From: Escherichia phage vB_Eco_F31 | Direction: 5' to 3' (one strand) | Sequence record: OP870147.1 | Length of the DNA stretch: 64,000 nt | Shown: positions 2,527 to 46,896 of the stretch, in pieces | How positions within the stretch are numbered: position 1 is the first letter of the stretch | How the letters are laid out: every line of letters begins with the position of its first letter | The notes under the pieces: generated by a model | What the model saw: the letters and a program-made list of their open reading frames with translations, nothing else | What the model was told of the DNA's origin: nothing | Database searches by the model: none | Made by a program: the position numbers and the translations under genes

Positions 2527-3627
2527 TTACGCTGTGAAGATTTTATCCCACATCGCAACAACTGCATCTCGATTATACTTCTTCCATACTGCTTCAGCAC
2601 GTTTAACTCGAGCTTCGTATGTGTCAGTGAATTCTAATACAGCTTTTGTGTAAAGCGCAACTACTTCTTTCTTAGGAGTAGAGGAATCAATTTCTACACG
2701 CACAGTATCTGGGTCGTATTCGAATGTCGCATGAGGATAATCCTTAAAAACTAACTGGATTACAGGGACACCTTTAGAGATGGCTTCAATAGAACTATTC
2801 TCTACCGTACCTGTGTCAGGACACGTATTAATAAGTGCTTTAGCTGTTTTAAGACATTCCATAATTTCACTGTGTGGAGCATCAATAATAACAGGATATT
2901 TAGCTGGTGGTGCCCATTTGCTTGGACAATAACCAATACCATTTTCGCCTAGTGCTTTAATCGCTTCAAGAGCAACATCAGTACGACGCATTTTAGTGTC
3001 ATAACGTTGTGCACTAATAATCAGATCAGTCGCCGGAAGAACTTCAGGTTTCTCATTCAAACAAATAACCGGATAATCTTCGGCTTCAAACAACGGATTT
3101 GCTCGCCAATAATCATAATCGATTTTGTCAGTCAGACCTGAAGTCATATAACAATATTTGCGTTCAAATTCACGGAAGGCTTTAGTAGGAGCATAACTCT
3201 TACCGCCATTCTTATGAATTTGAATAGTTTGGTCCCAAATTTGAACAATACCACGAGATACCGGTTCAAATGGTGTTGCCATAAAATTCTTGTGAACTTT
3301 AGAGAGACCTGCGTCTTTAATTGCCTGAACGGTTAGTTTAGTCGGTTCCATAGTAACAACAAAATCATATTCATGGATGCCGGCTAGTTCAACAATCTTA
3401 CGAGCCATAGTATAACTCATACCTAGACTGAATTTAGTCAGATGACCAACAGGATGATGATTAACTTTCCAATCACCAAATGTGTCATTATCAAAACCGA
3501 TATAATCAATATCGGCACCAATAGAAACTAAATATTTCAACACATTTAAATGTACTGCTTCAAGACCACCTTGTACACGTTCAGGATTAAATGGGACTGC
3601 ACGAGATGGGATAAACATAACTTTCAT
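2527..3627 (-). CDS. GT-B fold glycosyltransferase, candidate hmC pentosyl(arabinosyl)transferase
   Basis: 366-aa ORF; N-terminal MKVMFIPS...GGLE and C-terminal G-x-VENSSIEAISKGVPVI resemble the GT1/GT4 E-x7-E donor-binding region; lies between rIIA and topoisomerase where T4 has no such gene. Confidence 0.55.
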   Translation of the reverse strand: MKVMFIPSRAVPFNPERVQGGLEAVHLNVLKYLVSIGADIDYIGFDNDTFGDWKVNHHPVGHLTKFSLGMSYTMARKIVELAGIHEYDFVVTMEPTKLTVQAIKDAGLSKVHKNFMATPFEPVSRGIVQIWDQTIQIHKNGGKSYAPTKAFREFERKYCYMTSGLTDKIDYDYWRANPLFEAEDYPVICLNEKPEVLPATDLIISAQRYDTKMRRTDVALEAIKALGENGIGYCPSKWAPPAKYPVIIDAPHSEIMECLKTAKALINTCPDTGTVENSSIEAISKGVPVIQLVFKDYPHATFEYDPDTVRVEIDSSTPKKEVVALYTKAVLEFTDTYEARVKRAEAVWKKYNRDAVVAMWDKIFTA

Positions 3628-8413: not shown

Positions 8414-8415
8414 CA

Positions 8416-8910: not shown

Positions 8911-8942
8911 AATGTTTTTTCCTGTTTGGTTAAGATAGAAAG

Positions 8943-8973
8943 ATTATACTCCAACCATCCTTGGTTGTAAACT
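8943..8973 (-). repeat. repeated early promoter cassette (copy 1), PeSL-like
   Basis: attatactccaaccatccttggttgta identical to copies near 50750 and 51770; GTTTAC-N17-GTATAAT on the minus strand. Confidence 0.55.
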
Positions 8974-8977
8974 GATT

Positions 8978-9655: not shown

Positions 9656-9664
9656 AATTTTCTC

Positions 9665-11286: not shown

Positions 11287-11288
11287 AA

Positions 11289-12035: not shown

Positions 12036-12084
12036 AATATTTTCCTCTGTCTTACGGACGTTAAGGTCATTTAGCTGATAAGTC

Positions 12085-12114
12085 TATAATATCATGCCCT
12101 CAGGTAGTGTACAC
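12085..12114 (-). promoter_or_regulatory. early promoter upstream of srd
   Basis: Minus strand GTGTAC-N17-ATTATA-GAC. Confidence 0.4.
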
Positions 12115-12188
12115 TCTTTTTTCGTAAAATGCTTTAATTTTTTATGTGTTATAATGGTTCTGAGTTCCATCCGGTTATTCCAATTCAG

Positions 12189-12797: not shown

Positions 12798-12823
12798 TTA
12801 GGTTTCTCCTGTGGTTGATAAAG

Positions 12824-12853
12824 GTATAGTATCATCGGAAGAGTTTGTACACT
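12824..12853 (-). promoter_or_regulatory. early promoter upstream of modA
   Basis: Minus strand TGTACA-N17-ACTATA. Confidence 0.4.
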
Positions 12854-13433
12854 AAAAATTCAACATTTTCAAATGAATGATTTTGTATAACCGAGATAAA
12901 GGGTCATATTCTAAGTCTTCAATTTCCACAATCTCAAATCTAGAGATACCTGAGACCATGTACTCTTGTTCAGATTCAATCATATCTAGGACGTCAACAC
13001 GCTTTTCTTCCATAACATGCTTAGGGTTCTTTCCGGCGAGTACAATGTTAATCATGTTTTGGTAGTAATCAAAAATGAATGGAGCATTCCTGAGACTAAG
13101 AATAGTGTACGTCTGATATTCCCATCTCCCAGAGAATTGACGAGCTGTACTGAAATCAGTTGTGAATGATGTTACTCGTCCAGGAGACCAATGGCATCCA
13201 ACAGAAAGAAGTGAAAGACGTTCTACTTCTTCTGGAGTTACACCACGGTAGAGTTCTACTGGTACTGTAGAAGTCATATGCTTACGAACAAGATGGTCTA
13301 ATTCATAGTGGAAATCCGGGTCTTCCTTAGAATCGGTGCAAGCCCAGAGAATGTTTTGTTCTTGGCGGGTGAATTTGCTATCAATCAGATTTGTTAGGTA
13401 TTCACGTTCTTGAAGTTCAGATTGACATGTCAT
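12852..13433 (-). CDS. modB: ADP-ribosyltransferase ModB-like
   Basis: 193 aa; paralogue of the preceding ORF; GGAGG RBS and early promoter upstream. Confidence 0.6.
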   Translation of the reverse strand: MTCQSELQEREYLTNLIDSKFTRQEQNILWACTDSKEDPDFHYELDHLVRKHMTSTVPVELYRGVTPEEVERLSLLSVGCHWSPGRVTSFTTDFSTARQFSGRWEYQTYTILSLRNAPFIFDYYQNMINIVLAGKNPKHVMEEKRVDVLDMIESEQEYMVSGISRFEIVEIEDLEYDPLSRLYKIIHLKMLNF

Positions 13434-13460
13434 GATAGACCTCCATTTAAAGATAAGCCT

Positions 13461-13490
13461 ATCATAACACGAGAGGAGGGAATGTAAACT
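13461..13490 (-). promoter_or_regulatory. early promoter upstream of modB
   Basis: Minus strand GTTTAC-N17-TATGAT, then GGAGG RBS. Confidence 0.5.
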
Positions 13491-13653
13491 ACTTTTTAAG
13501 CTTTCCTACTAAAGGACCATCAGGACCAGGTTGTTCTAACATGAATAAGGATGCTTTAAAAAGCAATGTCAACCCTTTCACCATTCGATACCATGTCTCA
13601 AAGTCTTTTTCCTTGATTTCTAGTAAGAATTTCTCTTTCAATTTCTCTTTCAT
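13489..13653 (-). CDS. small hypothetical protein
   Basis: 54-aa ORF by manual translation; its ATG overlaps the upstream stop (ATGA coupling). Confidence 0.3.
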   Translation of the reverse strand: MKEKLKEKFLLEIKEKDFETWYRMVKGLTLLFKASLFMLEQPGPDGPLVGKLKK

Positions 13654-13838
13654 TTCCAAGGACTCCACGGTGGAGGGTCGTCATAATAAGACGCTAGGTC
13701 TTTCAGGACTTCTAACGGTAAACTAAACCCATGACGTTGTATAATATTACCAATTTCATTGACAAGTTCACCACGTTGTTCTTTAGGAGCCTCAACTTCA
13801 GGCTCGTCAAACATACTCATAAGGTCCATATTATTCAC
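13650..13838 (-). CDS. hypothetical protein
   Basis: 62-aa acidic ORF. Confidence 0.4.
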   Translation of the reverse strand: MNNMDLMSMFDEPEVEAPKEQRGELVNEIGNIIQRHGFSLPLEVLKDLASYYDDPPPWSPWK

Positions 13839-14295
13839 CGAGATAAAAACTAGCCGGTTCAGAGAATGTTTCTAGTGCTACACCTTTTGTCTTAAAAAAT
13901 TTCCAAATAGCTCGTTGCAAATGGATTAAATCTGCTAATGATGTAATAAAGTATTTTTTGGCAAAATACTTATGGTCTCGCTTTTCAAACAAGTCTAAAC
14001 GCTTTTCAGGATTCACATAAACTGCATTTTCCGTAGATTCATAACCTAAGTCCTTTATGCCTTCTTCAAGACTAAACGGAGAATTTTTAGAACGAGTAAT
14101 AGCTCCAACTCGCTCTACACGAATTTTGTAACCTTTAGGAATCTGCAATTTGCAGAATTCTTCTACGATATATTGCGGATTATTTAGACTTTTGTTAATG
14201 AGAATAGCTATTTCTAGTGGAGTCTTATCTTCTACTGGTATATGTTTAAACGACTTGGCTTCAAGCAAGTACATTTTAAATAACATAGCATCCAT
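13831..14295 (-). CDS. hypothetical protein (mrh position)
   Basis: 154-aa ORF between modB and soc as T4 mrh; assignment by position only. Confidence 0.4.
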   Translation of the reverse strand: MDAMLFKMYLLEAKSFKHIPVEDKTPLEIAILINKSLNNPQYIVEEFCKLQIPKGYKIRVERVGAITRSKNSPFSLEEGIKDLGYESTENAVYVNPEKRLDLFEKRDHKYFAKKYFITSLADLIHLQRAIWKFFKTKGVALETFSEPASFYLGE

Positions 14296-14474
14296 TATAA
14301 TTTCCTCGATGGTTCACCCATATAAAGTTTTACAATACGTTCGCCTTCATCTTCGACGAGCTTTTCTTCATGTTTCTGGAATTCTTTAGCCATATTCTCT
14401 TCAAGAACATCCAGCCAATCTTCTGGACCGACACCATCGTCACAGCTTTTAAACCATTTAACTATCTTGTTCAT
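14295..14474 (-). CDS. small hypothetical protein
   Basis: 59 aa counted from MNKIVKWF; ATGA overlap with the upstream ORF. Confidence 0.4.
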   Translation of the reverse strand: MNKIVKWFKSCDDGVGPEDWLDVLEENMAKEFQKHEEKLVEDEGERIVKLYMGEPSRKL

Positions 14475-14671
14475 TCGCAGCTCCCTGAGCTTGAACCACA
14501 ATCAGAATAACTTGACCCAGAATCACCAGGCCAAGACGATACGTATGAATGATTATAACTTGAAGAGCTTGAAGCATTAACCTGTTTTGTTTTTGGACGA
14601 ACAACTTCTTCCATCATTCCGTCACCGATATATTCCCAACTTTTTTCGTGTGTATCAGGAATAGGCATCAT
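14471..14671 (-). CDS. small Ser-rich hypothetical protein
   Basis: about 66 aa from MMPIPD...; C-terminal SSSSSYNHSYVSSWPGDSGSSYSDCGSSSGSCE; start chosen to avoid overlap with the upstream ORF. Confidence 0.3.
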   Translation of the reverse strand: MMPIPDTHEKSWEYIGDGMMEEVVRPKTKQVNASSSSSYNHSYVSSWPGDSGSSYSDCGSSSGSCE

Positions 14672-14684
14672 ACCTTCGCCTGGT

Positions 14685-14912
14685 TTAACAGCAAACAACT
14701 TCTTCAGCATCGTAAGCATTAATTGTTCCTCGAACAAAACGAACACCGCCGTCATCCCAACGGATTTCGGCATTAAATTTGACGTCTTCACCATCCATCA
14801 TGAATGAGTGTACGACTACATCATCGTAATATCCAAGACCGTACTTTAATGAAACTTCTTGAGCAATCAAAGCACCTAATGTGTTATTAGGTTTAATCCA
14901 ACGATTTAACAT
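14685..14912 (-). CDS. small hypothetical protein
   Basis: 75 aa from the ATG (MLNRWIKP) preceded by AGGAG; early-type promoter upstream. Confidence 0.4.
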   Translation of the reverse strand: MLNRWIKPNNTLGALIAQEVSLKYGLGYYDDVVVHSFMMDGEDVKFNAEIRWDDGGVRFVRGTINAYDAEEVVCC

Positions 14913-14941
14913 ATTGTTCTCCTCTTGAGTAAGTAAGAATA

Positions 14942-14971
14942 TCTTAACACAGTTTTTAGCGGTTGTAAACT
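14942..14971 (-). promoter_or_regulatory. early promoter (GTTTAC-N17-TAAGAT)
   Basis: Minus strand GTTTAC + 17 + TTAAGAT upstream of ORF 14685-14912. Confidence 0.4.
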
Positions 14972-14978
14972 GTAGAAA

Positions 14979-15006
14979 CAAAAAAAAAGGAATCCCGAAG
15001 GATTCC
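14979..15006 (-). terminator. rho-independent terminator downstream of soc
   Basis: GGAATCC-TTCG-GGATTCC followed by a T9 run on the minus strand. Confidence 0.75.
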
Positions 15007-15015
15007 TTAAATTAT

Positions 15016-15252
15016 TTAACCACTTACTGGTGTAGGGGTAAACATTGCAGCGTTCTTAGTTTTCCAAGTTGCTGCATCAGAAACGACATCAGAATAAGCT
15101 GCCTTTTCTGATGGAAAGATTTGGTAATGAGAATCTGCAATCCGATGTTCGTTTGAATAAATCTCAAACGGCACAGAAACTTCCATACCTTTAACTTCTT
15201 TACCTTCACCAGCAGGATGCGTAAAGGTTTTGATGTTTACATAACCACCCAT
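15016..15252 (-). CDS. soc: small outer capsid protein Soc
   Basis: 78 aa; GYVNIKTF...HYQIFPSEKAAYS matches T4 Soc as recalled; exact late-promoter box TATAAATA upstream; terminator downstream. Confidence 0.8.
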   Translation of the reverse strand: MGGYVNIKTFTHPAGEGKEVKGMEVSVPFEIYSNEHRIADSHYQIFPSEKAAYSDVVSDAATWKTKNAAMFTPTPVSG

Positions 15253-15283
15253 AATTAACTCCTTTGTTGTTTAATTACAGGTG

Positions 15284-15291
15284 TATTTATA
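15284..15291 (-). promoter_or_regulatory. late promoter box TATAAATA upstream of soc
   Basis: Exact TATAAATA on the minus strand about 30 nt upstream of the soc ATG. Confidence 0.65.
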
Positions 15292-15297
15292 ACTTAA

Positions 15298-15819
15298 TCA
15301 GTAACCATTATCCTGGCGTTCAAAGTTGTGTTGGTTTTTCAGGTAGTAAAGTTTAAAGATTTCTTCAGCGGAAAGACCCAGACCTTGGAACATATTCAGA
15401 ACAAAGTGGAGGATATCAATCATCTCAAATTTAATTTCAAGCTGGTCTTCAGGAGACAGTTCATCGATACGACGATTTCGATATTCAGCATGTTGTGCTT
15501 TCCATGGCTTCCATACACTGCTGGCAGCTTTTTCGCCATTGGACATACCACCAAGTGAAGTCAGCAGTTCACGGAATTCATCATCAATATAATCTTTCTG
15601 ATTACGCAGCCAATCAACAACATCGCCAGCAGTGGCCAATTCATCAGGATGTTTGTTATGTTCAGGCTTGTCATTTGCCAGACGAACCTGTAAAGATTTC
15701 TGCATATCAAGCATTACCTGCAATGGGTCTTTATCTTCGTGAATCAGAGCATTAAAATAAGCTTCTTCTGCTTTATCAACACCAGAAATAAGCTGTGAAC
15801 ATTCGTTAAAGTGTGCCAT
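15298..15819 (-). CDS. 56: dCTP pyrophosphatase (MazG-like), gp56
   Basis: 173 aa; size and synteny next to soc and the primase. Confidence 0.65.
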   Translation of the reverse strand: MAHFNECSQLISGVDKAEEAYFNALIHEDKDPLQVMLDMQKSLQVRLANDKPEHNKHPDELATAGDVVDWLRNQKDYIDDEFRELLTSLGGMSNGEKAASSVWKPWKAQHAEYRNRRIDELSPEDQLEIKFEMIDILHFVLNMFQGLGLSAEEIFKLYYLKNQHNFERQDNGY

Positions 15820-23687: not shown

Positions 23688-24236
23688 TTAACGAGCCCAT
23701 TTGATGATTTCTGTAATCAAACCATTACGTTCGCTTGCATTAAATCCTATAACTTTGTTAGCACCATCATGATTAAGTAATTGATACGTTTGGATTTTGT
23801 TATGAATTGCAAACTCTTCAAAATGTGAAATGACTGTATTAAAACCGAATGAAGACAAAGTAATAAGGTCGTCTTCAAAACTTTCAGTCATTTCGTTACG
23901 TGTTAAAATAATTGTGAACACATCATGGTTTTGGCAAAGACGAACATAATCCTGCTCATAAACATCAAGAACAGAGGCCGCATCTTGTCGAATACGTCCA
24001 TAAACCCAGTTACTAATATATCCACGGTCTAACAGATAAATCTTAGTAGGGTCTAAATAATTCAACATCGTTTCGAAACAACCAACTTCATTTCGAGACT
24101 TAACATCGAAACGTCCATCAACTGTTCGTTTAGGGAAATCAATCTTTACATATCTTTCACTAATTTCCATTATGTCATTAATGAAAGTTGTTTTACCGGC
24201 ATTATCCGGGCCATCTACTAAAATAATTTTAGCCAT
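23688..24236 (-). CDS. P-loop kinase (NMP-kinase-like fold), substrate unknown
   Basis: 182 aa; N-terminal Walker A ILVDGPDNAGKTT; occupies the T4 beta-gt locus. Confidence 0.55.
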   Translation of the reverse strand: MAKIILVDGPDNAGKTTFINDIMEISERYVKIDFPKRTVDGRFDVKSRNEVGCFETMLNYLDPTKIYLLDRGYISNWVYGRIRQDAASVLDVYEQDYVRLCQNHDVFTIILTRNEMTESFEDDLITLSSFGFNTVISHFEEFAIHNKIQTYQLLNHDGANKVIGFNASERNGLITEIIKWAR

Positions 24237-24237
24237 T

Positions 24238-25137
24238 TTATTCCTCGATTACGACATCTTCGTATTTAGGTATATTATACGGCGAAGAAATTAAAGCATT
24301 AAAGTAGATGAACTCACCAAGACCTGGATGGAATACTTCTTCAGGATTTTCGAAATATTGAATCTTCGGACGTCCTTTAAGAATTTGATAGTACTCAGTT
24401 TTAGTTGGTTTAAAAATTCTAATCAACGCTTCTTCAGGATACTTATTTCTGTCAAAGCTACTATTTGGATCAGTTATATAAAGCGGTTGACCTAATTGAA
24501 TTGCACATTCAACCACTTGTTCAAAACGATAGCACGGGTCACTAATTCGAAATGGATGAAAAATACCATCTAGATGAATAGGAGCCAAATCACCTACAAG
24601 ACGCTGCATGATGGAAGGACGTATAACTTTCTGAGTTACGATAATCTTATTACCATCTGCACCTGCGTTAACCAGCACTTCTTTTTGACGTTCATTCAAC
24701 ACAGTAGTTTGAAGTGAACGATTAACTGACAACATATCGGTTTTTAAGAATTCGTCAATATAAAAACGTGGTTTATTAGGGTCTGCCGTGATATTGAAAT
24801 TGAATTCTACATCAAAAGCGCCGTCATATCCAGTGATATCTGTTATTAGAAAATCACAATCATAATAAGCAATTAATGAATCAACCACAAATTCATTTTC
24901 AGACCAGAAATATTTACGAGTGTTATACGCGTTATCTTTATACCATAATGGAACAAACTTAAATTCCGGGAAAAGACGTTCACATTCTTTAATATCAGAT
25001 GCATTACGTGGATATGTAATCACATCACCTGGATTAGCACGGTGCAAATGAAGTTGGAAGTTGCCATCCTTAAGGATAGCATACTGTCCAGTTTCATAAG
25101 ACCGCATACTCAAAATAGGTACGCGGAAAATAGCCAT
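24238..25137 (-). CDS. hypothetical protein at the beta-glucosyltransferase syntenic position
   Basis: 299 aa; no motif I can assign; 1-nt gap to the kinase and 1-nt overlap with gene 42. Confidence 0.5.
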   Translation of the reverse strand: MAIFRVPILSMRSYETGQYAILKDGNFQLHLHRANPGDVITYPRNASDIKECERLFPEFKFVPLWYKDNAYNTRKYFWSENEFVVDSLIAYYDCDFLITDITGYDGAFDVEFNFNITADPNKPRFYIDEFLKTDMLSVNRSLQTTVLNERQKEVLVNAGADGNKIIVTQKVIRPSIMQRLVGDLAPIHLDGIFHPFRISDPCYRFEQVVECAIQLGQPLYITDPNSSFDRNKYPEEALIRIFKPTKTEYYQILKGRPKIQYFENPEEVFHPGLGEFIYFNALISSPYNIPKYEDVVIEE

Positions 25138-25853
25138 TAGTCAAGGAATCCTTTAACATAATCAAAATCACGTTCAAACACATGGGCACTTACCATGGTA
25201 TGAGTATAATCACCAACTTCTACACCGCATTCGTTAGCGATATAATGAAGTAATTTTCCTTGGAGATAAAAATCCAACTGCATAACAACAGCACAGTTCT
25301 GAGAACGCATATGACAGTGGGTATAAAGCTTACCATCACGAATATAATAAGTCACTGAGTCAGTACATGGATATTCAAGCGTTTCGTCTGAATCAAGCAA
25401 AGCCTGATCAGAACTTTCTAGAATTTGGAACACAACTCTTCGGGAGTTAGGCTTCTCTTTAAGTTCTTTTAGAAGAGCTGGTAATTGGGCCACAATGCGA
25501 GGACCGTAGAAAGTGTTGAAGTTTGCAGGCAAAGCGTCTGATTTAGGTTTAGAAATAAATTTAGCGACATTAGGATATGCCTTAAACGCTTCTTCTGCAT
25601 CAGTACCACCAGAAATCATAAACTTCCAGAAGTCTTCGGCATATTCATAAGAGATGCGGTTAATACGTGGGTCGGTCATTTTGAATGTTGACGGAGTGTC
25701 AACAACTACTGTCATAGACCCAATTTCATTACAACGTCCAATACGAGAATCAGTTACGAATTCCGGGTTTTCTAAAATTTCACGATTGACTGCTTTAAAT
25801 GCGGCTTGAAAATCTGCGGCTTTGATATATTTCATTGTGTTATGTTTTCCCAT
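25137..25853 (-). CDS. 42: dCMP hydroxymethylase (thymidylate-synthase fold), gp42-like
   Basis: 238 aa; YPCTDSVTYYI (catalytic Cys) and RSQN motifs parallel T4 gp42. Confidence 0.65.
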   Translation of the reverse strand: MGKHNTMKYIKAADFQAAFKAVNREILENPEFVTDSRIGRCNEIGSMTVVVDTPSTFKMTDPRINRISYEYAEDFWKFMISGGTDAEEAFKAYPNVAKFISKPKSDALPANFNTFYGPRIVAQLPALLKELKEKPNSRRVVFQILESSDQALLDSDETLEYPCTDSVTYYIRDGKLYTHCHMRSQNCAVVMQLDFYLQGKLLHYIANECGVEVGDYTHTMVSAHVFERDFDYVKGFLD

Positions 25854-25895: not shown

Positions 25896-26135
25896 TTATT
25901 TGAATTTCTTGGCAGTGTTGATATACCGTAAAGCTTCAGCATCGATACTTCCAAGAACACTATGAAGAAATGCATCAGCGTAGTATTCCAATTGAACAGG
26001 TTCTTTAATCACTTTAGCCGCTTTGGTTTCAAACAGGCCCATAAGGGCCTTTTTAAGAATTTGTTCGTTAGTGTTCAGTTTAATAGTCAAAATCTCTTCG
26101 TTAAGTTTATAATTAAAACTTTTTCTAGAAATCAT
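25896..26135 (-). CDS. hypothetical protein
   Basis: 79-aa ORF. Confidence 0.4.
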   Translation of the reverse strand: MISRKSFNYKLNEEILTIKLNTNEQILKKALMGLFETKAAKVIKEPVQLEYYADAFLHSVLGSIDAEALRYINTAKKFK

Positions 26136-27292
26136 TCCGGGTACCTCAAAGCGTCATCAGAGTTAGTTATATCAATAATAGATATAGAGTTTTCTGCTAA
26201 CCCGTTTTTAGATAATTGACGTTTATAATACCTTTCACAATATGTACACGTTGACCCACAGATTTCATTAGCACAATCAAAATCTGGATGTCTGAACCAC
26301 CTTTTTTCTAAAAAGCCATCTAACAAAGAGGTTTCAATATTTACTGTATGTGAAAACTCAGTTTCATTTTCAAGAGTGAAAATAGTCTCTAAAGGCTTCC
26401 ACAGTTCTAACAAATTACCTTCAAACTTTTCAGAAGCGTATGCTTCAAGAACTTTCAAAATGTAGTCTGTGCTACCTGTACGTCCTGAAACTTTGAATTG
26501 AGTGATACCGATATCATTATAAAGTTTCAAATCTTGAGGACGAACAAAACGAGTTCTCAACCAGTTAAATGGGTCTGTATCACGAGCTTTAATGCAGTGT
26601 TGCATTGGATACCCGTTTAAGGATTTAGCATCATCAGCTGTAACATCAGTACTATGGAAAATATAGCAAGAGTCACGATAGCTACAATGTGTTGTATACC
26701 CTTTACCAGCATTAGAACAGAACTCATTTACAAGAACTTCAAATATTATATTGTTCTTATTGCAAAACTCTGCTGCACGCTTCAGGAAAGAAACTGAACG
26801 GTTCTTATGAATTCCACAGCAGACCTTTTTGATATTGTATTGGTCATGTAAGTATTTGATTTGAGTTACAGCATCGACATGTAGAATTGTTGAAACTTCA
26901 ATCTCAATGTCTTTATTGACTTCACGAACAATTTCCATAACAACAGGGTTAGCGATAGTAATACGCCATACGCCTATTGACCAAAGATACTGAACATAAT
27001 CCTGAATAGCTTTCTTCTTCCACTCGACTAGTTCTCTTTTTGAACCAGGATTTATCGTGTTGAGTGTATAGTTAAAGCAAATACCTAATTCGTTACAACG
27101 TTTAACGTAATCTTCTAACATCTTTTTGTCAACGTCAGGAAGCCTAAAATCAGGTCTGGCTGCTACAAAAGCCATTTCTCTTGTAGAGCCGTATACTTCG
27201 TTTATCAAGCTATTAGGATAAGTTTTATTGAGCTCTACGATTTTATCAAGAAGAGCTAAATCAAAATTCGTTCCGATTTTAAAAGTATTCAT
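26132..27292 (-). CDS. Cys-rich putative Fe-S enzyme (possible U32-peptidase-like TIM-barrel family)
   Basis: 386 aa; central NEFCSNAGKGYTTHCSY and C-terminal CANEICGSTCTYC (CX3CX3CX2C) clusters. Confidence 0.4.
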   Translation of the reverse strand: MNTFKIGTNFDLALLDKIVELNKTYPNSLINEVYGSTREMAFVAARPDFRLPDVDKKMLEDYVKRCNELGICFNYTLNTINPGSKRELVEWKKKAIQDYVQYLWSIGVWRITIANPVVMEIVREVNKDIEIEVSTILHVDAVTQIKYLHDQYNIKKVCCGIHKNRSVSFLKRAAEFCNKNNIIFEVLVNEFCSNAGKGYTTHCSYRDSCYIFHSTDVTADDAKSLNGYPMQHCIKARDTDPFNWLRTRFVRPQDLKLYNDIGITQFKVSGRTGSTDYILKVLEAYASEKFEGNLLELWKPLETIFTLENETEFSHTVNIETSLLDGFLEKRWFRHPDFDCANEICGSTCTYCERYYKRQLSKNGLAENSISIIDITNSDDALRYPE

Positions 27293-27351
27293 TTTTTTTG
27301 CATCTCGCGTTAATTGATGCGATGGTTTTTTTGCAGGTCTTACTTAAATTA

Positions 27352-27738
27352 TTATAGGTTCGGTTTATATGATTTAAATGTTTCGAATTCGCCTTTATTC
27401 ATAAGAGCTTTGAATTCGTCAGGACGCATAGCTTTGTCGTCGATAATCCAATCATATACTGGTTTATGTGTTAGCAAATTATGGTACTTCAAGCCAATGT
27501 TTGCCAAGTTCTGAATCAGACTTGGGAGAATGTCAATTGCTATACGACCAGGACCTACTGACTTCATACCGCGCGCAGTGTAAAGCGTTATGGTATGCCC
27601 TGCATCATACAGGGCATTAATGGCAGACACCATTTCGACGTCCGGTTTGAAGTTCACGTAATCACGATTGTTATTCCACTCTGTTATACAATCATCGACA
27701 TCAAAACAAAGATTAAGCATGTTTTCTACACGATGCAT
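27352..27738 (-). CDS. HAD-superfamily phosphatase
   Basis: about 128 aa; HAD motif I FDVDDCIT near the N-terminus; start overlaps the upstream stop (TAATG). Confidence 0.55.
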   Translation of the reverse strand: MHRVENMLNLCFDVDDCITEWNNNRDYVNFKPDVEMVSAINALYDAGHTITLYTARGMKSVGPGRIAIDILPSLIQNLANIGLKYHNLLTHKPVYDWIIDDKAMRPDEFKALMNKGEFETFKSYKPNL

Positions 27739-29423
27739 TAGATTCGTTCCCATTGATGAGTGATATCGCCACCGATTGGACGATAGGAAACACCAGTTTC
27801 TTTATCAGTTAGTACCCATTTACCAGGATTTTTTGTAATCAGAGTAGCCGTTACAGGTTCTGCTACGTCATAACTAATAGAGCCGTCTTGAAGTACACGG
27901 CCCATGTTACGTAATTGCTTAGTCAGAAGTTCCATACCTTTATAATATGCGGCTACCGCTTTAAGTGGATTATTCTTGAAATAACCACCTAATGCAATCC
28001 AGATAATTGCCACTGCCAAATGATGATACTCGTTAAACGAACTCATCTTTCCATATTTGTAAACTAATGGATTGATGTTAATAGTCACATTACAAGTTGT
28101 TTCATCAATAGTAAACTGTCCCCAGGTCGGATTAGCGTTGAATTCATCATAACCTGAAACAGCGTAAAGCACTTTAGCTTCATCGTACAATTTTGGCCCG
28201 TAAATCTTAGTTTCACCAAAATATCCACGAGGGTCGATAAACTTGACTTCGCCATTATCAGTAATCATAGTATTACTGAAGTTCGGGTCACCATGAATAA
28301 CAGAGTACTGTCCCTGAGAACGGTTATGATAACGAATAAGGTGTTCTAAAGCTTGTTTCAGCATTGGCTTCAGACGTCCAATCTTAGTGTAGTTCACGTG
28401 TGTGATTTTACCAAATGAATCAATCAATGGTTGAATGCTTTCACAACGATCAATAACTTTCGTATAGAATTCTTTAGTGAAATCACGACGGACAGTTTCA
28501 GGACTTACAAAATAAGTGTCTGTGCTGAATTTCAGTGCATCTAAAATTGCATCAACAATTTGTGGACGAGCAAGACTTGATTTGGATTTAATATATTCAA
28601 ATGCCGGCTTACCTTTAATGCGTTCCATTTCAAAGTTATTTTCATTAACAGAAACTAACTGAGGAACTGAATCTGATTTCACTTTAAGATACCATGAAAT
28701 CTCATCTTTCTGAAGAGCTCGACCCTGTTCGGTTAATGCGAATTTAGTTACAGTTTCTTCACCAATTTCAACTGCATTAAAACTACGATTAAGTTCACGA
28801 ACTTCATGAGCTTTTTCAAGTTTAGGCATATCACCTAAATCAATTAGATTCATAAGCTCTGATTTATTGAATGCGCTGCCGTAAAGGAATTCTACGAAAT
28901 CACGTCCTTTGCAGTATTCATGAATTTCCTCATCAGTAGAACCCATGTAGAATTCCCAGTCTTTAAACTGATAAATTCCTACAACATTACCGCCTGTTTC
29001 ACCTACATTAGTGATATTTTCACCATCGAAATTATACCGACATTCATCACCCTTAACATAGATTGCGTTAACATTCCAAGACCATGAACCAAAATCGGGA
29101 ATAATATCACACCAGTTAACAATTACGTTATGGCCGTCTAAATCTTTGTGTAATTTAGCAAGAGCATAAGCAGAACCATACGCTTCATCAACTGTACGAA
29201 TAGTCACATTGAACCCTTCTTGCTCACAATAAGCTCGAACAGTTTCAGCAAATTTTGAATGAACTACTACAATAATTTCATCTGCGCCAAGGTCAGAATA
29301 AATTGTATACAAATTGCTCAGAATAGTGTCTTGTTTATAGTTAACAAGCACCTTAGGAATATGATGCGTTATTGGATACAAACGAGTTGCCAGTCCAGCA
29401 CCAAGAATAACAGCTTTTTTCAT
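27738..29423 (-). CDS. bifunctional sugar-1-phosphate nucleotidyltransferase (RmlA-like, N-terminal) / anomeric sugar kinase (ChoK/APH-like, C-terminal)
   Basis: 561 aa; N-terminal MKKAVILGAGLATRLYPIT (G-x-G-x-R, cf. RmlA ILAGGSGTRLYP); C-terminal VIHGDPNFSNTMI (Brenner HGDxxxxN) and FIDPRG. Confidence 0.6.
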   Translation of the reverse strand: MKKAVILGAGLATRLYPITHHIPKVLVNYKQDTILSNLYTIYSDLGADEIIVVVHSKFAETVRAYCEQEGFNVTIRTVDEAYGSAYALAKLHKDLDGHNVIVNWCDIIPDFGSWSWNVNAIYVKGDECRYNFDGENITNVGETGGNVVGIYQFKDWEFYMGSTDEEIHEYCKGRDFVEFLYGSAFNKSELMNLIDLGDMPKLEKAHEVRELNRSFNAVEIGEETVTKFALTEQGRALQKDEISWYLKVKSDSVPQLVSVNENNFEMERIKGKPAFEYIKSKSSLARPQIVDAILDALKFSTDTYFVSPETVRRDFTKEFYTKVIDRCESIQPLIDSFGKITHVNYTKIGRLKPMLKQALEHLIRYHNRSQGQYSVIHGDPNFSNTMITDNGEVKFIDPRGYFGETKIYGPKLYDEAKVLYAVSGYDEFNANPTWGQFTIDETTCNVTININPLVYKYGKMSSFNEYHHLAVAIIWIALGGYFKNNPLKAVAAYYKGMELLTKQLRNMGRVLQDGSISYDVAEPVTATLITKNPGKWVLTDKETGVSYRPIGGDITHQWERI

Positions 29424-44611: not shown

Positions 44612-45082
44612 TTAATCATGTTTCCACACCCCATCGGTATTTGACCAAAGTCGCTGATTATCTGATCCTCGCCACAGCTTTTTAGTCGGAAGATTTTTCT
44701 CATACTTCCCATCAATAATAACATCAACATATTTAAGCATTTCTAGTTGTTTAATATCTTCAAACTTATATCCTGTCCACAACCAAATGCTTTTATTGGG
44801 ATAAAGATTTTTTACTGTTTGAGCAATGCAATGAATAACATCTCGGTTATCAGGATAGAGAGGGTCACCTCCGGTTATAGTTAATCCTTCTATATAATCA
44901 TTATTCAAACATTCAATTAATTGTTCTAGTGTTTCACCAGTGAATGGAACACCATTTCTAGCATTCCATGTTGATTTATTATAACACCCTTCGCATTTAT
45001 GCAAACAACCCGTAACGAAAAGAACGACCCTGCATCCGGGGCCGTTCACAAAATCGCAAGGATAAAATCTATCATAATTCAT
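44612..45082 (-). CDS. nrdG: anaerobic ribonucleotide reductase activating protein NrdG (radical SAM)
   Basis: 156 aa; CLHKCEGC radical-SAM cluster motif; adjacent to nrdD. Confidence 0.85.
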   Translation of the reverse strand: MNYDRFYPCDFVNGPGCRVVLFVTGCLHKCEGCYNKSTWNARNGVPFTGETLEQLIECLNNDYIEGLTITGGDPLYPDNRDVIHCIAQTVKNLYPNKSIWLWTGYKFEDIKQLEMLKYVDVIIDGKYEKNLPTKKLWRGSDNQRLWSNTDGVWKHD

Positions 45083-46896
45083 TGGTGTTTAACCCTATGC
45101 ATGATTTCTTTATTTTTACCGAGATTAAATCCGCGTTCGTTCGGATTTCCCAAATAACCGCATGTTCTTCTTATGGTGTTCATCTTTTTAGGATCAGTTT
45201 CTCCGCAAACTGAACAAACAAATCCGTTTTCAGTAGGAGTCATTTCATGGGTACTTCCACATGTAAAACATTTATCTACTGGCATATTAACACCAAAATA
45301 ATCTAAATGTTGTGCAGCATAATCCCAGACGGCCTCAAGTCCCTTTAAATTGTTTTTCATATCTGGAAGTTCAACATAAGAAATGTGACCACCTGTCGCA
45401 ATGAAATGATATGGCGCTTCACGAGAAATCTTTTCAAACGGAGTAATATTTTCTTCTACTGAAACGTGGAAACTGTTAGTGTACCAGCCTTTATCGGTAA
45501 CATCCTTTACACTTCCATATTTTTCTGTATCGAGTTTACAGAAGCGATAACAAAGGTTTTCAGCAGGAGTCGAATATAAACTAAAAGCAAATCCAGTTCT
45601 TTCAGACCACTGTTTAAGATGAGCATTCATTTTAGTTAAAATTTCTTGCCCAATATCACGACCAACAAGAATATTCAATTCGTGAATACCAATGTATCCT
45701 AAAGACACTGAACTTCTACCGTTTTTAAATAACTCAATTATGTCGTCATCAGGTTTAAGACGAACCCCGAATGCACCTTCTTGGTAAAGAATAGGAGCAA
45801 CAGTCGCTTTAACTCCTTTTAAGGAACTAATTCTACACATCAAAGCTTCAAAACACAGGTCCATTCGTTCGTTAAATAGCTCAACAAATTTCTGTTCATT
45901 GAACTGTGTTCCAATATAAGAATCTAACGCAATACGAGGAAGATTCAGTGTTACAACACCAAGATTATTACGTCCATCAAGAATTTCATTACCAGTCGAA
46001 TCTTTCCATACGCTCAAGAAACTACGGCAACCCATTGGAGAAACTGGAACTGAAGAACCGGTAATAGCTTTATTATTCTTAACCGAAATAATGTCAGGAT
46101 ACATTCTTTTGCTTGCACATTCTAACGCAAGTTGTTTAATATCATAGTTTGGATCATCTTTATAAAGATTAACACCTTCTTCAACAAACATAACAAGTTT
46201 AGGAAAAATAGGAGTTATTCCATCACGACCAAGACCTTTAATGCGGTTTTTAAGAATTGCCTTCTGAATCATTCGTTCAGTCCAGTCAGTTCCCGTACCA
46301 AATGTAATTGTTACAAAAGGCGTTTGTCCGTTTGAACTAAAGAGAGTATTTACTTCGTATTCATAAGCTTGGAATGCGTCATAGACATCTTTTTCTGTTT
46401 TAGATTGAGCATAATTCAACGCATCAGCGATTTGCCATTTTTCTGCATCTTCAACATGTTTAGCGTATGTGCGTTTAACATAAGGAGAAAGAACTTTATC
46501 TACATTCGCAAATGTAGTTCCGCCATACTGGTGTGAAGCAACTTGTGCGGTAATTTGTGCCATAATTGCAGTAGCAACACCAATAGATTTAGGCGTTTCA
46601 ATTTGAGCATTGCCTAATTTAAATCCATTCTCAAGCATCCCCTTTAAATCGACTAAACAGCAATTGGTAAACGGAAGAGCAGGAGAATAATCAATATCAT
46701 GCATGTGAATGATTCCGCTTTCATGCGCATTCATAATAAAAGACGGGACCATATTTTTGGCAATGTGCTTAGACACAATACCAGCCATAAGGTCCCGTTG
46801 AGTTGGAAAAACACGAGAATCTTTATTAGCATTCTCGTTCAAAAGATCTTTATTAGTTTTATAAATTAATCCTTCAATTTCTTTTTCAATTTTCAT
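45079..46896 (-). CDS. nrdD: anaerobic ribonucleoside-triphosphate reductase NrdD
   Basis: 605 aa; C-terminal glycyl-radical motif RRTCGYLG; zinc-ribbon cysteines; no intron interruption. Confidence 0.9.
   Translation of the reverse strand: MKIEKEIEGLIYKTNKDLLNENANKDSRVFPTQRDLMAGIVSKHIAKNMVPSFIMNAHESGIIHMHDIDYSPALPFTNCCLVDLKGMLENGFKLGNAQIETPKSIGVATAIMAQITAQVASHQYGGTTFANVDKVLSPYVKRTYAKHVEDAEKWQIADALNYAQSKTEKDVYDAFQAYEYEVNTLFSSNGQTPFVTITFGTGTDWTERMIQKAILKNRIKGLGRDGITPIFPKLVMFVEEGVNLYKDDPNYDIKQLALECASKRMYPDIISVKNNKAITGSSVPVSPMGCRSFLSVWKDSTGNEILDGRNNLGVVTLNLPRIALDSYIGTQFNEQKFVELFNERMDLCFEALMCRISSLKGVKATVAPILYQEGAFGVRLKPDDDIIELFKNGRSSVSLGYIGIHELNILVGRDIGQEILTKMNAHLKQWSERTGFAFSLYSTPAENLCYRFCKLDTEKYGSVKDVTDKGWYTNSFHVSVEENITPFEKISREAPYHFIATGGHISYVELPDMKNNLKGLEAVWDYAAQHLDYFGVNMPVDKCFTCGSTHEMTPTENGFVCSVCGETDPKKMNTIRRTCGYLGNPNERGFNLGKNKEIMHRVKHQ

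What the first reader, a model, noticed from the sequence alone, without database searches (positions are those of the whole stretch)
26132..27292. Cys-rich putative Fe-S enzyme embedded in the modification island
The 386-aa ORF has a central cysteine series (VCCG, EFCN, NEFCSNAGKGYTTHCSY, DSCY) and a C-terminal CX3CX3CX2C cluster. The pattern is reminiscent of U32-peptidase-family Fe-S enzymes, which catalyse O2-independent hydroxylations, but the match is loose. An Fe-S enzyme co-located with hmC and sugar-nucleotide genes could act on the sugar donor or on the modified base.
Basis: inference. Interest (0 to 1): 0.6.

Follow-up and report, generated by a model that had tools for sequence, protein, structure and literature searches.

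The report
Phage anaerobic cytosine hydroxylase candidate
This phage gene, labelled a "peptidase", most likely encodes an iron-sulfur enzyme that adds a hydroxyl group to the DNA building block dCMP without oxygen, taking the oxygen atom from the metabolite prephenate, so the phage could still make its modified DNA in the oxygen-free gut where its known oxygen-dependent enzyme cannot work.

Summary

A 2026 paper shows that these phages make arabosylated 5-hydroxycytosine, and that the neighbouring ThyA homologue makes 5-hydroxy-dCMP using flavin and O2. That paper gives the U32 gene no tested function.

New evidence here:
- In nearly every other phage genus the U32 gene is translationally coupled to a chorismate mutase. 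In unrelated metagenomic phages it sits beside DAHP synthase–chorismate mutase fusions. These enzymes make prephenate, the oxygen donor of known U32 hydroxylases.
- Phages of strict aerobes (Acinetobacter, Rhizobium) have the ThyA-type enzyme only. Phages of facultative anaerobes have both. Relatives linked to obligate anaerobes had U32 only within the ±6–10 kb examined.
- U32 is the most conserved protein in the cluster.

Best explanation: an O2-independent, prephenate-dependent dCMP C5-hydroxylase that backs up the O2-dependent enzyme. This is inferred, not shown. Two key papers could not be read.

The parts
26132..27292 (-). U32-family protein, 386 aa (orthologue of RB69 ORF050c / NP_861740.1): the candidate prephenate-dependent, O2-independent pyrimidine C5-hydroxylase
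26594..26821 (-). Central cysteine region, residues 158-233 (C158, C177, C192, C203, C209, C233), with E185 and E190. Putative [4Fe-4S] site and U32 catalytic motif.
   Evidence: Translation. Invariance across 121 sequences. FE185VLVNEFC192 aligns with RlhA IE161FFIHGALC169, and GYPMQHC233 aligns with UbiU GYPTLC232. E161/C169/C176 are essential in RlhA and E162/C170/C177 in TrhP (PMC5727448; PMC6599085).
26237..26275 (-). C-terminal Cys4 motif C340-X4-C345-X3-C349-X2-C352. A second metal site, either Fe-S or Zn; which one is undetermined.
   Evidence: Translation CANEICGSTCTYC. 100% conserved. No Pfam family. RlhA also needs C-terminal cysteines C580 and C611.
25896..26135 (-). ORF X, 79 aa (RB69 ORF049c), translationally coupled to U32 through an ATGA overlap. 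Small helical protein of unknown role. It occupies the slot that holds a chorismate mutase in other genera, but it is not one.
   Evidence: Junction sequence. PHROG 8601. No CM_2 hit. hhalign against phage CMs gives probability 0.14%. Distribution. Low-confidence four-helix model.
25137..25853 (-). ThyA-homologue 5-hydroxy-dCMP synthase (RB69 gp48 orthologue). This is the flavin- and O2-dependent route to the same product.
   Evidence: Pfam Thymidylat_synt at 57.8 bits. Orthology. Function, FMN binding and 18O2 incorporation shown for RB69 gp48 in PMC13326640.
24238..25137 (-). DNA arabinosyltransferase 1 (RB69 gp46:47 orthologue)
   Evidence: PHROG 3891. Assignment from PMC13326640 Table 1. 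Homologues accompany U32 in distant phages.
23688..24236 (-). Tmk-like P-loop nucleotide kinase (RB69 gp45 orthologue)
   Evidence: PHROG 761. PMC13326640 Table 1.
27352..27753 (-). HAD-family phosphatase (RB69 gp51 / AfhF type), arabinose-1,5-bisphosphate 5-phosphatase
   Evidence: PHROG 1238 and TIGR01689. PMC13326640.
27738..29423 (-). Bifunctional sugar kinase / nucleotidyltransferase (RB69 gp52:53 / AfhE type) that makes UDP-arabinofuranose
   Evidence: NTP_transferase plus kinase-like hits. PMC13326640.
29605..30240 (-). SIS-domain arabinose-5-phosphate isomerase (RB69 gp55 orthologue)
   Evidence: Pfam SIS, TIGR00393 and PHROG 5670.
15301..15819 (-). Context: gp56-type dCTPase. It removes dCTP, so replication depends on a supply of 5-hydroxy-dCTP.
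   Evidence: tblastn mapping, 100% identity to the PhAPEC2 gp56 homologue. RB69p028 is listed as a dCTPase in PMC13326640 Table 1.
44615..46896 (-). Context: anaerobic ribonucleotide reductase NrdG (44615-45082) and NrdD (45082-46896). These show the phage is equipped to replicate without oxygen.
   Evidence: tblastn mapping at 99.4-99.5% identity. Distribution.
2530..3627 (-). Context: second DNA arabinosyltransferase (RB69 gp3 orthologue)
   Evidence: PMC13326640 Table 1.

Best explanation
The gene encodes an iron-sulfur enzyme of the U32 family that hydroxylates C5 of a deoxypyrimidine nucleotide, most likely converting dCMP to 5-hydroxy-dCMP, without molecular oxygen. The oxygen atom would come from prephenate, as in the characterised U32 systems UbiU/V, TrhP and RlhA. 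Proposed mechanism, by analogy and not shown here: the TIM-barrel U32 domain binds the nucleotide and prephenate next to a [4Fe-4S] cluster held by four of the invariant central cysteines (best candidates C192, C203, C209, C233). The pyrimidine is oxidised by two electrons, which leave through the cluster and possibly through the C-terminal Cys4 site. Decarboxylation of prephenate delivers hydroxide to C5 and releases phenylpyruvate and CO2. The product enters the known pathway: dNMP kinase, incorporation by the DNA polymerase, then arabinosylation on the DNA. Physiologically this would be the anaerobic counterpart of the neighbouring flavin- and O2-dependent ThyA-type 5hodCMP synthase. The phage destroys dCTP with its dCTPase, so it cannot replicate without 5-hydroxy-dCTP. 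In the anoxic gut the O2-dependent enzyme is useless and the U32 enzyme would take over, in the same way that these phages carry NrdDG alongside aerobic NrdAB. In most related genera the phage brings its own chorismate mutase to raise the prephenate supply. In this window's lineage (Mosigvirus) that gene has been lost, and host PheA/TyrA would have to supply prephenate. Shown here: family membership, cysteine conservation, gene linkage, and the distribution across phages. Inferred: Fe-S binding, prephenate use, the substrate, and the anaerobic role.
For: (2) Prephenate link. In LC53 and Entb_45 the gene overlapping the U32 stop codon is a genuine AroQ chorismate mutase (CM_2 44.6 and 40.9 bits, GA 27). 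This CM occurs in 56 phage records, essentially all the non-Mosigvirus U32 phages, and almost nowhere else among 50,697 records. In Thanatos-1 the U32-CM pair has moved elsewhere in the cluster but stays overlapped. In unrelated metagenomic phages and anaerobe MAG contigs the U32 homologue sits beside DAHP synthase-CM fusions (L045: 125 + 65 bits), a DAHP synthase overlapping its stop codon (L031: 142 bits), or standalone CMs (L088: 54.9 bits; L096; L100). Prephenate is the demonstrated O donor or requirement for UbiU/V, TrhP and RlhA, and the PheA CM domain alone restores those pathways (PMC10990095; PMC5727448; PMC6599085).
(3) Nucleotide or base substrate rather than sugar. Phages without the gene still have the complete sugar pathway. 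Homologues sit next to dCMP deaminase, thymidylate kinase, UDG, dNK, NT5C and nucleoside deoxyribosyltransferase genes.
(4) Oxygen logic. The ThyA-type enzyme uses FMN and O2 (18O2 labelling). The ThyA-type gene occurs in 373 phage records, including 57 Acinetobacter and 20 Rhizobium phages. U32 occurs in 221 records, all at 80% identity or more, and the listed and sampled ones are all Enterobacterales or Shewanella phages, never Acinetobacter or Rhizobium. In 28 distant metagenome-derived loci and 12 genome loci the U32 homologue sits in GT + isomerase + kinase/NTP-transferase clusters with no ThyA-type hydroxylase within +/-6-10 kb, whereas the same profile finds one in 15 of 15 Straboviridae loci. 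The named organisms for the genome loci are almost all obligate anaerobes. The window also encodes a dCTPase and NrdDG.
(5) Selection. U32 is the most conserved protein of the cluster across six genera, with aa identity 0.84 against 0.76 for the proven synthase.
Against: No biochemical or genetic test of this protein exists in anything I could read. No U32 protein has yet been shown to hydroxylate in vitro. Expression of gp48 plus a kinase is enough to put 5hodC into E. coli DNA aerobically, so U32 is not needed under laboratory conditions. Dhakavirus phages infect E. coli yet lack U32, so the host-lifestyle correlation is not absolute. That correlation also rests on few independent lineages: one Acinetobacter-phage clade and one Rhizobium-phage clade. 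The window's own lineage has lost the chorismate mutase. The canonical CX6CX15CX3-4C spacing is not kept, and the two alignment methods map the cysteines differently, so the ligand assignment is tentative. I could not obtain model coordinates to measure Cys-Cys distances. Absence of a ThyA-type gene in the distant phages was checked only within +/-6-10 kb. Co-location with sugar genes in those clusters is also compatible with a sugar-related role. Two key papers (He et al. 2026, Nat Chem Biol; Mahler et al. 2025, Cell Host Microbe) could not be read and may contain relevant data on this gene.
Confidence: 0.5

Rival explanations
1. The enzyme is a prephenate-dependent hydroxylase but acts on a polymer rather than on the free nucleotide. 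It would either hydroxylate cytosine already in phage DNA, or hydroxylate RNA (tRNA wobble U34 or rRNA C2501, like TrhP and RlhA) to tune translation during infection.
For: Its closest characterised relatives, RlhA and TrhP, act on RNA. T-even phages encode their own tRNAs (own knowledge). The chorismate mutase linkage fits any prephenate-dependent hydroxylation.
Against: It lacks RlhA's DUF3656 and any recognisable TrhP C-terminal domain, since PF01136 is the only hit. It is always embedded in DNA-modification or deoxynucleotide clusters in very different phages. The phage dCTPase should leave no unmodified C in the DNA to hydroxylate afterwards. Host TrhP and RlhA already exist in E. coli.
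Confidence: 0.13
2. The enzyme hydroxylates a different nucleotide or position. One option is dUMP to 5-hydroxy-dUMP. Another is further oxidation of 5hoC or of a pathway intermediate. In that case it would diversify the modification rather than duplicate gp48.
For: In several distant phages a dCMP deaminase gene lies immediately upstream of or overlaps the U32 gene (L007, L010, L052). TrhP acts on uracil.
Against: RB69 and DLP3 DNA carry the same arabinosyl-5hoC chemistry with or without U32, and no additional modified base was reported in RB69 (abstract). The Straboviridae clusters pair U32 with a dCMP-specific synthase.
Confidence: 0.12
3. The enzyme works on the sugar side of the pathway. 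This is the published placeholder 'sugar or heterocycle reductase': for example, redox tailoring of the arabinose donor.
For: PMC13326640 Table 1 lists it that way, from fold matches only. The Bas46 record calls it a 'putative enzyme involved in UDP-arabinose biosynthesis'. It co-occurs with the isomerase, kinase/NTP-transferase and GT genes in most lineages.
Against: UDP-arabinofuranose synthesis is fully accounted for by isomerase, AfhE-type and AfhF-type enzymes. Acinetobacter phages make tri-arabinosyl-5hoC without U32. No known U32 enzyme acts on a sugar. The conserved partnership with chorismate mutase and DAHP synthase has no rationale in sugar chemistry. Some contexts contain no sugar genes at all (L008).
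Confidence: 0.08
4. It is a real peptidase or collagenase, as most genome records annotate it, unrelated to DNA modification.
For: The historical family name. A few U32 proteins (PrtC, HP0169) were reported as collagenolytic. Many GenBank records say 'peptidase'.
Against: No catalytic mechanism for U32 proteolysis is known. The invariant residues are cysteines and the Glu of the hydroxylase motif. The position in the cluster, the coupling to chorismate mutase and the association with nucleotide enzymes are all unexplained by proteolysis.
Confidence: 0.03

Closest known systems
RlhA (YdcP), E. coli 23S rRNA 5-hydroxycytidine C2501 synthase (U32 family)
   Same: Best profile match (probability 79%, E 1.6e-5). 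It makes the same chemical change, C5 hydroxylation of cytosine. It has a U32 motif with essential Glu and Cys residues plus an essential C-terminal cysteine cluster, and it requires prephenate and Fe-S biogenesis.
   Different: RlhA is 653 aa with a DUF3656 domain and binds pre-50S particles. The phage protein is 386 aa with no DUF3656, has different Cys spacing, sits in a DNA-modification cluster, and is proposed to act on a free deoxynucleotide.
TrhP / TrhO dual pathway for tRNA 5-hydroxyuridine
   Same: The same logic is proposed here: a prephenate-dependent U32 enzyme (TrhP) and an unrelated O2-dependent enzyme (TrhO) make the same C5-hydroxypyrimidine. Organisms living with and without oxygen carry both, and anaerobes need the U32 route.
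   Different: The substrate is tRNA U34. The O2-dependent partner is a rhodanese-family protein, not a flavin-binding ThyA homologue. The two genes are not clustered and have no dedicated chorismate mutase.
UbiU/UbiV (with UbiT), O2-independent ubiquinone hydroxylases, paired with flavin monooxygenases UbiI/H/F
   Same: U32 Fe-S proteins that replace flavin/O2 hydroxylases under anoxia. Prephenate has been proven to be the O donor. The phage GYPxxC233 motif matches UbiU's cluster cysteine C232 (ligand list from own knowledge).
   Different: UbiU/V is a heterodimer acting on a lipid with help from UbiT. The phage has a single U32 gene, scores 18.5 bits against the 440-bit cutoff of the UbiU model, and has no UbiT.
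RB69 gp48-type 5-hydroxy-dCMP synthase (ThyA superfamily)
   Same: It makes the proposed product, lies two genes away in the same cluster, and feeds the same downstream pathway.
   Different: Unrelated fold and chemistry: FMN and O2 (18O2 incorporated). It is present in phages of strict aerobes, which lack U32.
Phage NrdDG alongside NrdAB (anaerobic and aerobic ribonucleotide reductases of T-even phages)
   Same: A precedent for T-even phages carrying an oxygen-sensitive Fe-S/radical enzyme as the anaerobic twin of an oxygen-requiring nucleotide enzyme. Both are encoded in this window's genome.
   Different: Different reaction and protein families. This is an analogy of strategy only.

Membership tests
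Peptidase_U32 superfamily (Pfam PF01136) | Significant match to the family profile above the curated gathering score | tested here: met
   E 7.3e-11, 42.2 bits against GA 22.4, residues 94-286. All listed homologues but three carry PF01136.
Peptidase_U32 superfamily (Pfam PF01136) | TIM-barrel-like fold of the only solved U32 structure (5d88, Mk0906) | tested here: met
U32 Fe-S hydroxylases (UbiU/V, TrhP, RlhA) | Conserved Glu and Cys residues of the U32 motif (RlhA E161/C169/C176; TrhP E162/C170/C177) and four cluster-ligating cysteines | tested here: inconclusive
   E185...C192 aligns with E161...C169, and C233 aligns with UbiU C232. Six central cysteines are invariant. The canonical CX6C spacing is absent, and hhalign and MAFFT map C203 and C209 differently.
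U32 Fe-S hydroxylases (UbiU/V, TrhP, RlhA) | Binds a [4Fe-4S] cluster | not testable with these tools
   Needs anaerobic purification with UV-vis, EPR and Fe/S analysis.
U32 Fe-S hydroxylases (UbiU/V, TrhP, RlhA) | Activity depends on prephenate and not on O2 | not testable with these tools
   Only indirect evidence: conserved gene coupling to chorismate mutase and DAHP synthase in several independent phage lineages.
RlhA subfamily | Co-occurrence of the U32 motif with DUF3656 (unique to RlhA) | tested here: not met
   Pfam finds PF01136 only. The protein is 386 aa against 653 aa.
UbiU / UbiV equivalogs | Score above the NCBIfam equivalog cutoff; paired U and V genes with UbiT | tested here: not met
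   NF047963 UbiU scores 18.5 bits against a cutoff of 440. There is a single U32 gene and no UbiT-like neighbour.
TrhP subfamily | Close similarity to TrhP, including its characteristic C-terminal motif | tested here: not met
   hhalign probability 10% and only over the N-terminal barrel. No additional Pfam domain.
Radical SAM enzymes | Radical_SAM domain with the CX3CX2C motif near the N-terminus of a partial TIM barrel | tested here: not met
   There is no Radical_SAM hit at E <= 0.1. C345-X3-C349-X2-C352 fits the pattern literally, but it lies at the extreme C-terminus with a fourth invariant Cys (C340), after a complete U32 barrel.
AroQ chorismate mutase (for the coupled ORF X, 25896..26135) | Match to CM_2 and the catalytic Arg/Lys residues | tested here: not met
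   No CM_2 hit at E <= 10. hhalign against phage CMs gives probability 0.14%. The syntenic genes of other genera do meet this test (44.6 and 40.9 bits).

The most novel reading that the evidence does not exclude
This would be the first viral U32 hydroxylase, and the first one directed at a DNA precursor: an oxygen-independent, prephenate-consuming dCMP (or dUMP) C5-hydroxylase. Facultative-anaerobe phages would keep it as the anoxic twin of their flavin/O2 enzyme. In phages of strict anaerobes (gut Clostridia, Bacteroidales, megaphage-like contigs) it would be the only route, which implies that glycosylated 5-hydroxypyrimidine DNA is widespread in uncultured gut phages. Some of these phages go as far as importing DAHP synthase and chorismate mutase to divert host aromatic metabolism toward an oxygen donor for DNA modification. 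Because the substrate would be a small soluble nucleotide, this enzyme could also give the first in vitro reconstitution of U32 hydroxylase chemistry.
Probability: 0.45. Interest if true: 0.85.

Novelty: new variant of a known kind. Interest (0 to 1): 0.72.

Why it matters
(1) It would explain how phages with 5-hydroxycytosine DNA replicate in the anoxic gut. Their only characterised hydroxylase needs O2, and they destroy dCTP. This gap is not raised in the 2026 paper I could read, which lists this gene only as a possible reductase.

(2) It would extend prephenate-dependent hydroxylation from RNA and quinones to DNA precursors, and from cells to viruses. U32 proteins are described as almost exclusively bacterial or archaeal, and most of the 12 subfamilies are uncharacterised.

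(3) No U32 hydroxylase has been reconstituted in vitro. A soluble enzyme with a commercial substrate (dCMP) and co-substrate (prephenate) would be the most tractable test case.

(4) It predicts oxygen-dependent differences in phage fitness and DNA modification. These matter for phage therapy with Mosigvirus, Slopekvirus-type and related phages, and for the defence systems that sense these modifications.

(5) U32 together with chorismate mutase or DAHP synthase could serve as a genomic marker for 5-hydroxypyrimidine DNA modification in uncultured phages of anaerobes.

Tried and rejected
- **ORF X as a diverged chorismate mutase.** Rejected: no CM_2 hit and hhalign probability 0.14%. X is a separate small protein that coexists with CM in Yersinia TG1 and Serratia 92A1.
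- **Structure of X.** The AF2 model was too poor (pLDDT 61), so no fold search was run.
- **Radical SAM.** No domain hit.
- **Direct sequence search of solved structures.** Only chance hits, E about 1.
- **AFDB50 fold search.** The library was unavailable, so subfamily placement by structure could not be done.
- **Regulatory signals.** Sigma-70-like promoter matches are no more frequent than in shuffles (20 against 25 +/- 5.9). The hairpin upstream of the U32 start is not significant (z = -0.61). No claims are made.
- **The Dhakavirus ORF in the U32 slot as an alternative hydroxylase.** It is a P-loop kinase.
- **Do Acinetobacter phages also lack NrdDG?** Only suggestive. Acinetobacter is not among the top-10 organisms for NrdD, and nrdG is among the genes not shared by all five Acinetobacter T4-like phages.
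- **dN/dS.** dS is saturated in most genus pairs, so only dN and identity are used.
- **Literature.** No paper in the searchable library links U32, phages and hydroxycytosine or phage chorismate mutase and hydroxylation. The Thanatos, RB69-2018 and Durham papers do not discuss the gene. He et al. 2026 and Mahler et al. 2025 are not held. No supplements are held for the NAR paper.
- **Cys-Cys distances in the model.** Coordinates are not exposed by the tools.
Full report
**1. The observation**

All the quoted cysteine strings are present. The C-terminal motif reads CANEICGSTCTYC, which is CX4CX3CX2C rather than CX3CX3CX2C.

The cysteines are conserved, not a chance pattern. In an alignment of 121 homologues down to 46% identity, C158, C192, C203, C209, C233, C340, C345, C349 and C352 are invariant and C177 is 98% conserved. 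C66, C72 and C159 are only 17-40% conserved.

**2. What the window is**

The region matches Mosigvirus (RB69-like T-even) phages at about 98% DNA identity. The window is collinear with the first 64 kb of such a genome, starting at rIIA. The ThyA-like to U32 stretch is 97.6% identical to RB69 itself over its full length. The three genes are therefore orthologues of RB69 ORF048c, 049c and 050c.

**3. The context has changed since "hmC"**

A 2026 paper (PMC13326640) shows that RB69 DNA carries mono- and di-arabinosylated 5-hydroxycytosine, with the sugar ether-linked directly to C5. The ThyA homologue gp48 (window 25137..25853) makes 5-hydroxy-dCMP. It binds FMN, and 18O from 18O2 is incorporated into the product.

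The paper assigns the neighbouring genes to UDP-arabinofuranose synthesis (isomerase, bifunctional kinase/nucleotidyltransferase, HAD phosphatase) and to arabinosyl transfer. The U32 gene (RB69p050) appears only in Table 1, as "Sugar or heterocycle reductase", on the basis of fold hits to 5d88. It is not discussed or tested.

No paper in the searchable library links U32 with phage hydroxycytosine. Two relevant papers (He et al. 2026; Mahler et al. 2025) are not held. This is the main caveat on novelty.

**4. The protein itself**

- **Family match.** Pfam PF01136 (Peptidase_U32) matches at E 7.3e-11, 42.2 bits against a gathering score of 22.4. PHROG 5757 covers the full length. NCBIfam gives only a far-sub-threshold UbiU hit.
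- **Closest characterised relative.** Profile comparison with the four E. coli U32 enzymes ranks RlhA, the 23S rRNA 5-hydroxycytidine synthase, first: probability 79%, E 1.6e-5, 193 columns. TrhP scores 10%, UbiU 4% and UbiV 0.5%.
- **Motif residues.** RlhA needs E161, C169 and C176 in the U32 motif, plus C-terminal cysteines C580 and C611. TrhP needs E162, C170 and C177. The phage family keeps FE185VLVNEFC192, which aligns with IE161FFIHGALC169. It also keeps GYPMQHC233, which aligns with UbiU GYPTLC232. C232 is one of UbiU's four cluster cysteines; that list is from my own knowledge of Pelosi et al. 2019, and the paper read here documents only C176. The phage family also has its own invariant C-terminal Cys4.
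- **Unresolved points.** The canonical CX6CX15CX3-4C spacing is not preserved, and the two alignment methods place C203 and C209 differently. Which four cysteines hold a cluster is therefore unresolved.
- **Subfamily.** The protein lacks DUF3656 and any other domain. It belongs to none of the four characterised subfamilies.

**5. The main new finding: a conserved partnership with prephenate-forming enzymes**

In Serratia phage LC53 and Enterobacter phage Entb_45, the small gene that overlaps the U32 stop codon by 4 nt is a genuine AroQ chorismate mutase (CM). It lies between U32 and the ThyA homologue, and it scores 44.6 and 40.9 bits on CM_2 against a cutoff of 27. The phage CMs keep the AroQ catalytic Arg, Arg, Lys, Ser and Gln positions, judged by eye from the alignment against the E. 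coli CM residues as I recall them.

This CM is found in 56 of 50,697 phage records. Those 56 are essentially all the U32-carrying phages outside Mosigvirus: Klebsiella, Serratia, Yersinia, Enterobacter, Edwardsiella, Erwinia, Proteus, Pectobacterium, Providencia, Morganella, Kosakonia, EcS1 and Shewanella.

In Shewanella phage Thanatos-1 the U32-CM pair has moved downstream of the ThyA-like, GT and kinase genes, yet it remains an overlapped pair. The two genes therefore behave as a module.

The link recurs in lineages that share only 40-55% U32 identity and range from 22 to 59% GC:
- L045, L081, L085 and L100 have a DAHP synthase-CM fusion just upstream of U32 (L045: 125 + 65 bits).
- L031 has a DAHP synthase overlapping the U32 stop codon (142 bits).
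- L088 and L096 have standalone CMs next to U32 (L088: 54.9 bits).
- L107 has a DAHP synthase nearby.

Prephenate is the proven O donor for UbiU/V and is genetically required for TrhP and RlhA. The PheA CM domain alone restores those pathways. A phage-borne CM welded to a U32 gene is hard to explain except as a supply of co-substrate.

**6. In the window itself the CM is missing**

The coupled 79-aa ORF X (25896..26135; ATGA overlap) is not a CM. X is largely confined to Mosigvirus, where it is often truncated. It coexists with CM in Tegunavirus TG1 and Serratia 92A1. Its function is unknown. Mosigvirus, and a Klebsiella-phage lineage in which U32 directly abuts the ThyA-like gene (L059), would have to rely on host PheA/TyrA for prephenate.

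**7. Substrate: nucleotide or base rather than sugar**

Acinetobacter phages (Maestro, DLP3) and E. coli Dhakavirus lack U32 but keep the sugar-activation genes. In Maestro the phosphatase gene directly abuts the ThyA-like gene. DLP3 makes tri-arabosyl-5hoC.

Elsewhere the homologue sits beside:
- dCMP deaminase, thymidylate kinase, UDG and a DnaE-type polymerase, in a 466-kb contig and its relatives;
- NT5C, deoxynucleoside kinase, nucleoside deoxyribosyltransferase, a radical SAM/SPASM protein and a second divergent U32.

**8. The oxygen pattern**

- **ThyA-type synthase.** It is present in 373 phage records, including 57 Acinetobacter and 20 Rhizobium phages.
- **U32.** It is present in 221 records, all at 80% identity or more. 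Every listed or sampled record is from a phage of Enterobacterales or Shewanella. Combining accounts for all 221 by host genus; that step is an inference.
- **Distant relatives.** A profile of the ThyA-type synthase finds the gene in 15 of 15 Straboviridae loci (437-492 bits) and in 0 of 28 distant metagenome-derived loci within +/-6-10 kb (25 from the viral collection, 3 found through encoding contigs). The one exception is a canonical thymidylate synthase. It also finds none in the 12 loci from cellular genomes.
- **Cluster content.** Most of the distant viral loci, and three of the cellular-genome loci, nevertheless contain the AraT1-type GT, SIS isomerase and kinase/NTP-transferase genes. 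They look like base-glycosylation clusters in which U32 is the only candidate hydroxylase.
- **Host names.** The organism names attached to the genome loci are Erysipelotrichales, Bacillota, Oscillospiraceae, Gastranaerophilaceae, Romboutsia (two), Angelakisella, Clostridium, Phocaeicola faecalis, and uncultured Planctomycetota, Woesearchaeota and BRC1. These are overwhelmingly obligate anaerobes.

The result is a three-tier pattern. Aerobe phages have the ThyA-type enzyme only. Facultative-anaerobe phages have both. Anaerobe-associated elements have U32 only, within the flanks examined. This mirrors what was described for TrhO and TrhP and for UbiI/H/F and UbiU/V.

The window also encodes the gp56-type dCTPase (15301..15819), which makes 5-hydroxy-dCTP indispensable. 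It also encodes NrdG/NrdD (44615..46896), the established anaerobic twin of an O2-requiring nucleotide enzyme in T-even phages.

**9. Selection**

Across six genera U32 is the most conserved protein of the cluster, with mean identity 0.84 and dN 0.135. The comparable figures are 0.76 and 0.192 for the proven synthase, 0.54 for the arabinosyltransferase, 0.43 for CM and 0.38 for X (dS is mostly saturated). A gene that is dispensable for aerobic laboratory reconstitution but more constrained than the "essential" enzyme fits a function needed in a condition the laboratory does not impose.

**10. Caveats**

- Everything about activity is inference. No U32 enzyme has been reconstituted in vitro.
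- Dhakavirus shows that E. coli phages can do without U32.
- The aerobe/anaerobe contrast rests on few independent clades.
- Distant loci were examined only to +/-6-10 kb.
- MAG host assignments can be wrong.
- The cysteine-ligand mapping is tentative.
- Two key papers were unreadable.

**11. Verdict**

The interpretation can be made much more specific: an O2-independent, prephenate-dependent route to 5-hydroxy-dCMP. I put about 0.9 on "Fe-S U32-family enzyme", about 0.7 on "prephenate-dependent hydroxylase", and about 0.5 on the full statement (dCMP substrate and anaerobic backup role).

This is a new variant of a known kind of enzyme. It has a new substrate class, it is the first case in viruses, and it has dedicated prephenate-supply genes. 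It is directly testable with simple experiments.

Noticed in passing
window 25896..26135 (-): ORF X (RB69 ORF049c), 79 aa, is coupled to U32 by an ATGA overlap and carries the conserved motif EYYxDAF(L/V/I)HS. It is not a chorismate mutase. It is often truncated or frameshifted among Mosigvirus genomes (47-58-aa versions). It coexists in tandem with a true CM in Yersinia phage TG1 and Serratia phage 92A1, and its N-terminus survives fused to the CM ORF of Serratia phage LC53. Function unknown.
   Followed up: partly
L002:5658-6002, L003:5658-5897, L016:4983-5240; absent from the window: Phage-encoded AroQ chorismate mutase overlaps the U32 stop codon in about 56 phage genomes from at least 12 genera. 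It has been lost in Mosigvirus (this window) and in a Klebsiella-phage lineage where U32 directly abuts the ThyA-like gene (L059).
   Followed up: yes
L045:4321-5376, L031:7080-7826, L100, L081, L085: Uncultured phages and anaerobe MAG contigs carry DAHP synthase, or DAHP synthase-chorismate mutase fusions, next to the U32 homologue. These are viral auxiliary genes for the entry and branch points of the shikimate pathway.
   Followed up: partly
L008 / L097 (Bacillota MAG), about 8001-15428: A cluster of U32, NT5C, NMN transporter, deoxynucleoside kinase, AlaRS-like protein, radical SAM/SPASM protein, a second very divergent U32 (377 aa) and a nucleoside 2-deoxyribosyltransferase. It may be an uncharacterised nucleoside or nucleotide modification pathway.
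   Followed up: no
L007:7447-8004, L010:7504-7929, L052:5540-6004: A dCMP deaminase gene lies immediately upstream of, or overlaps, the U32 homologue in phages with a DnaE-type polymerase, including a 466-kb contig. This hints at a 5-hydroxy-dUMP rather than a 5-hydroxy-dCMP route there.
   Followed up: no
L012 (Escherichia phage dhabil, Dhakavirus): This E. coli phage has the ThyA-type synthase, GT, phosphatase and bifunctional enzyme, but has no U32, no CM and no SIS isomerase. The slot holds a P-loop kinase. It is a counter-example to a strict link between host lifestyle and U32.
   Followed up: partly
L041:4689-5951: An IS605-family OrfB/TnpB (Cas12f-like) gene is inserted directly upstream of the U32 homologue in one viral contig.
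   Followed up: no
window 25137..25853 (-) and public annotations: Many GenBank records still label the gp48-type gene 'dCMP hydroxymethylase' or 'thymidylate synthase' and the U32 gene 'peptidase' or 'collagenase'. Both labels are probably misleading.
   Followed up: yes
window 27293..27351: The 59-nt gap upstream of the U32 start is A-rich with no obvious Shine-Dalgarno sequence. It contains a weak hairpin (27305-27322) that is not more stable than shuffled sequence (z = -0.61).
   Followed up: yes
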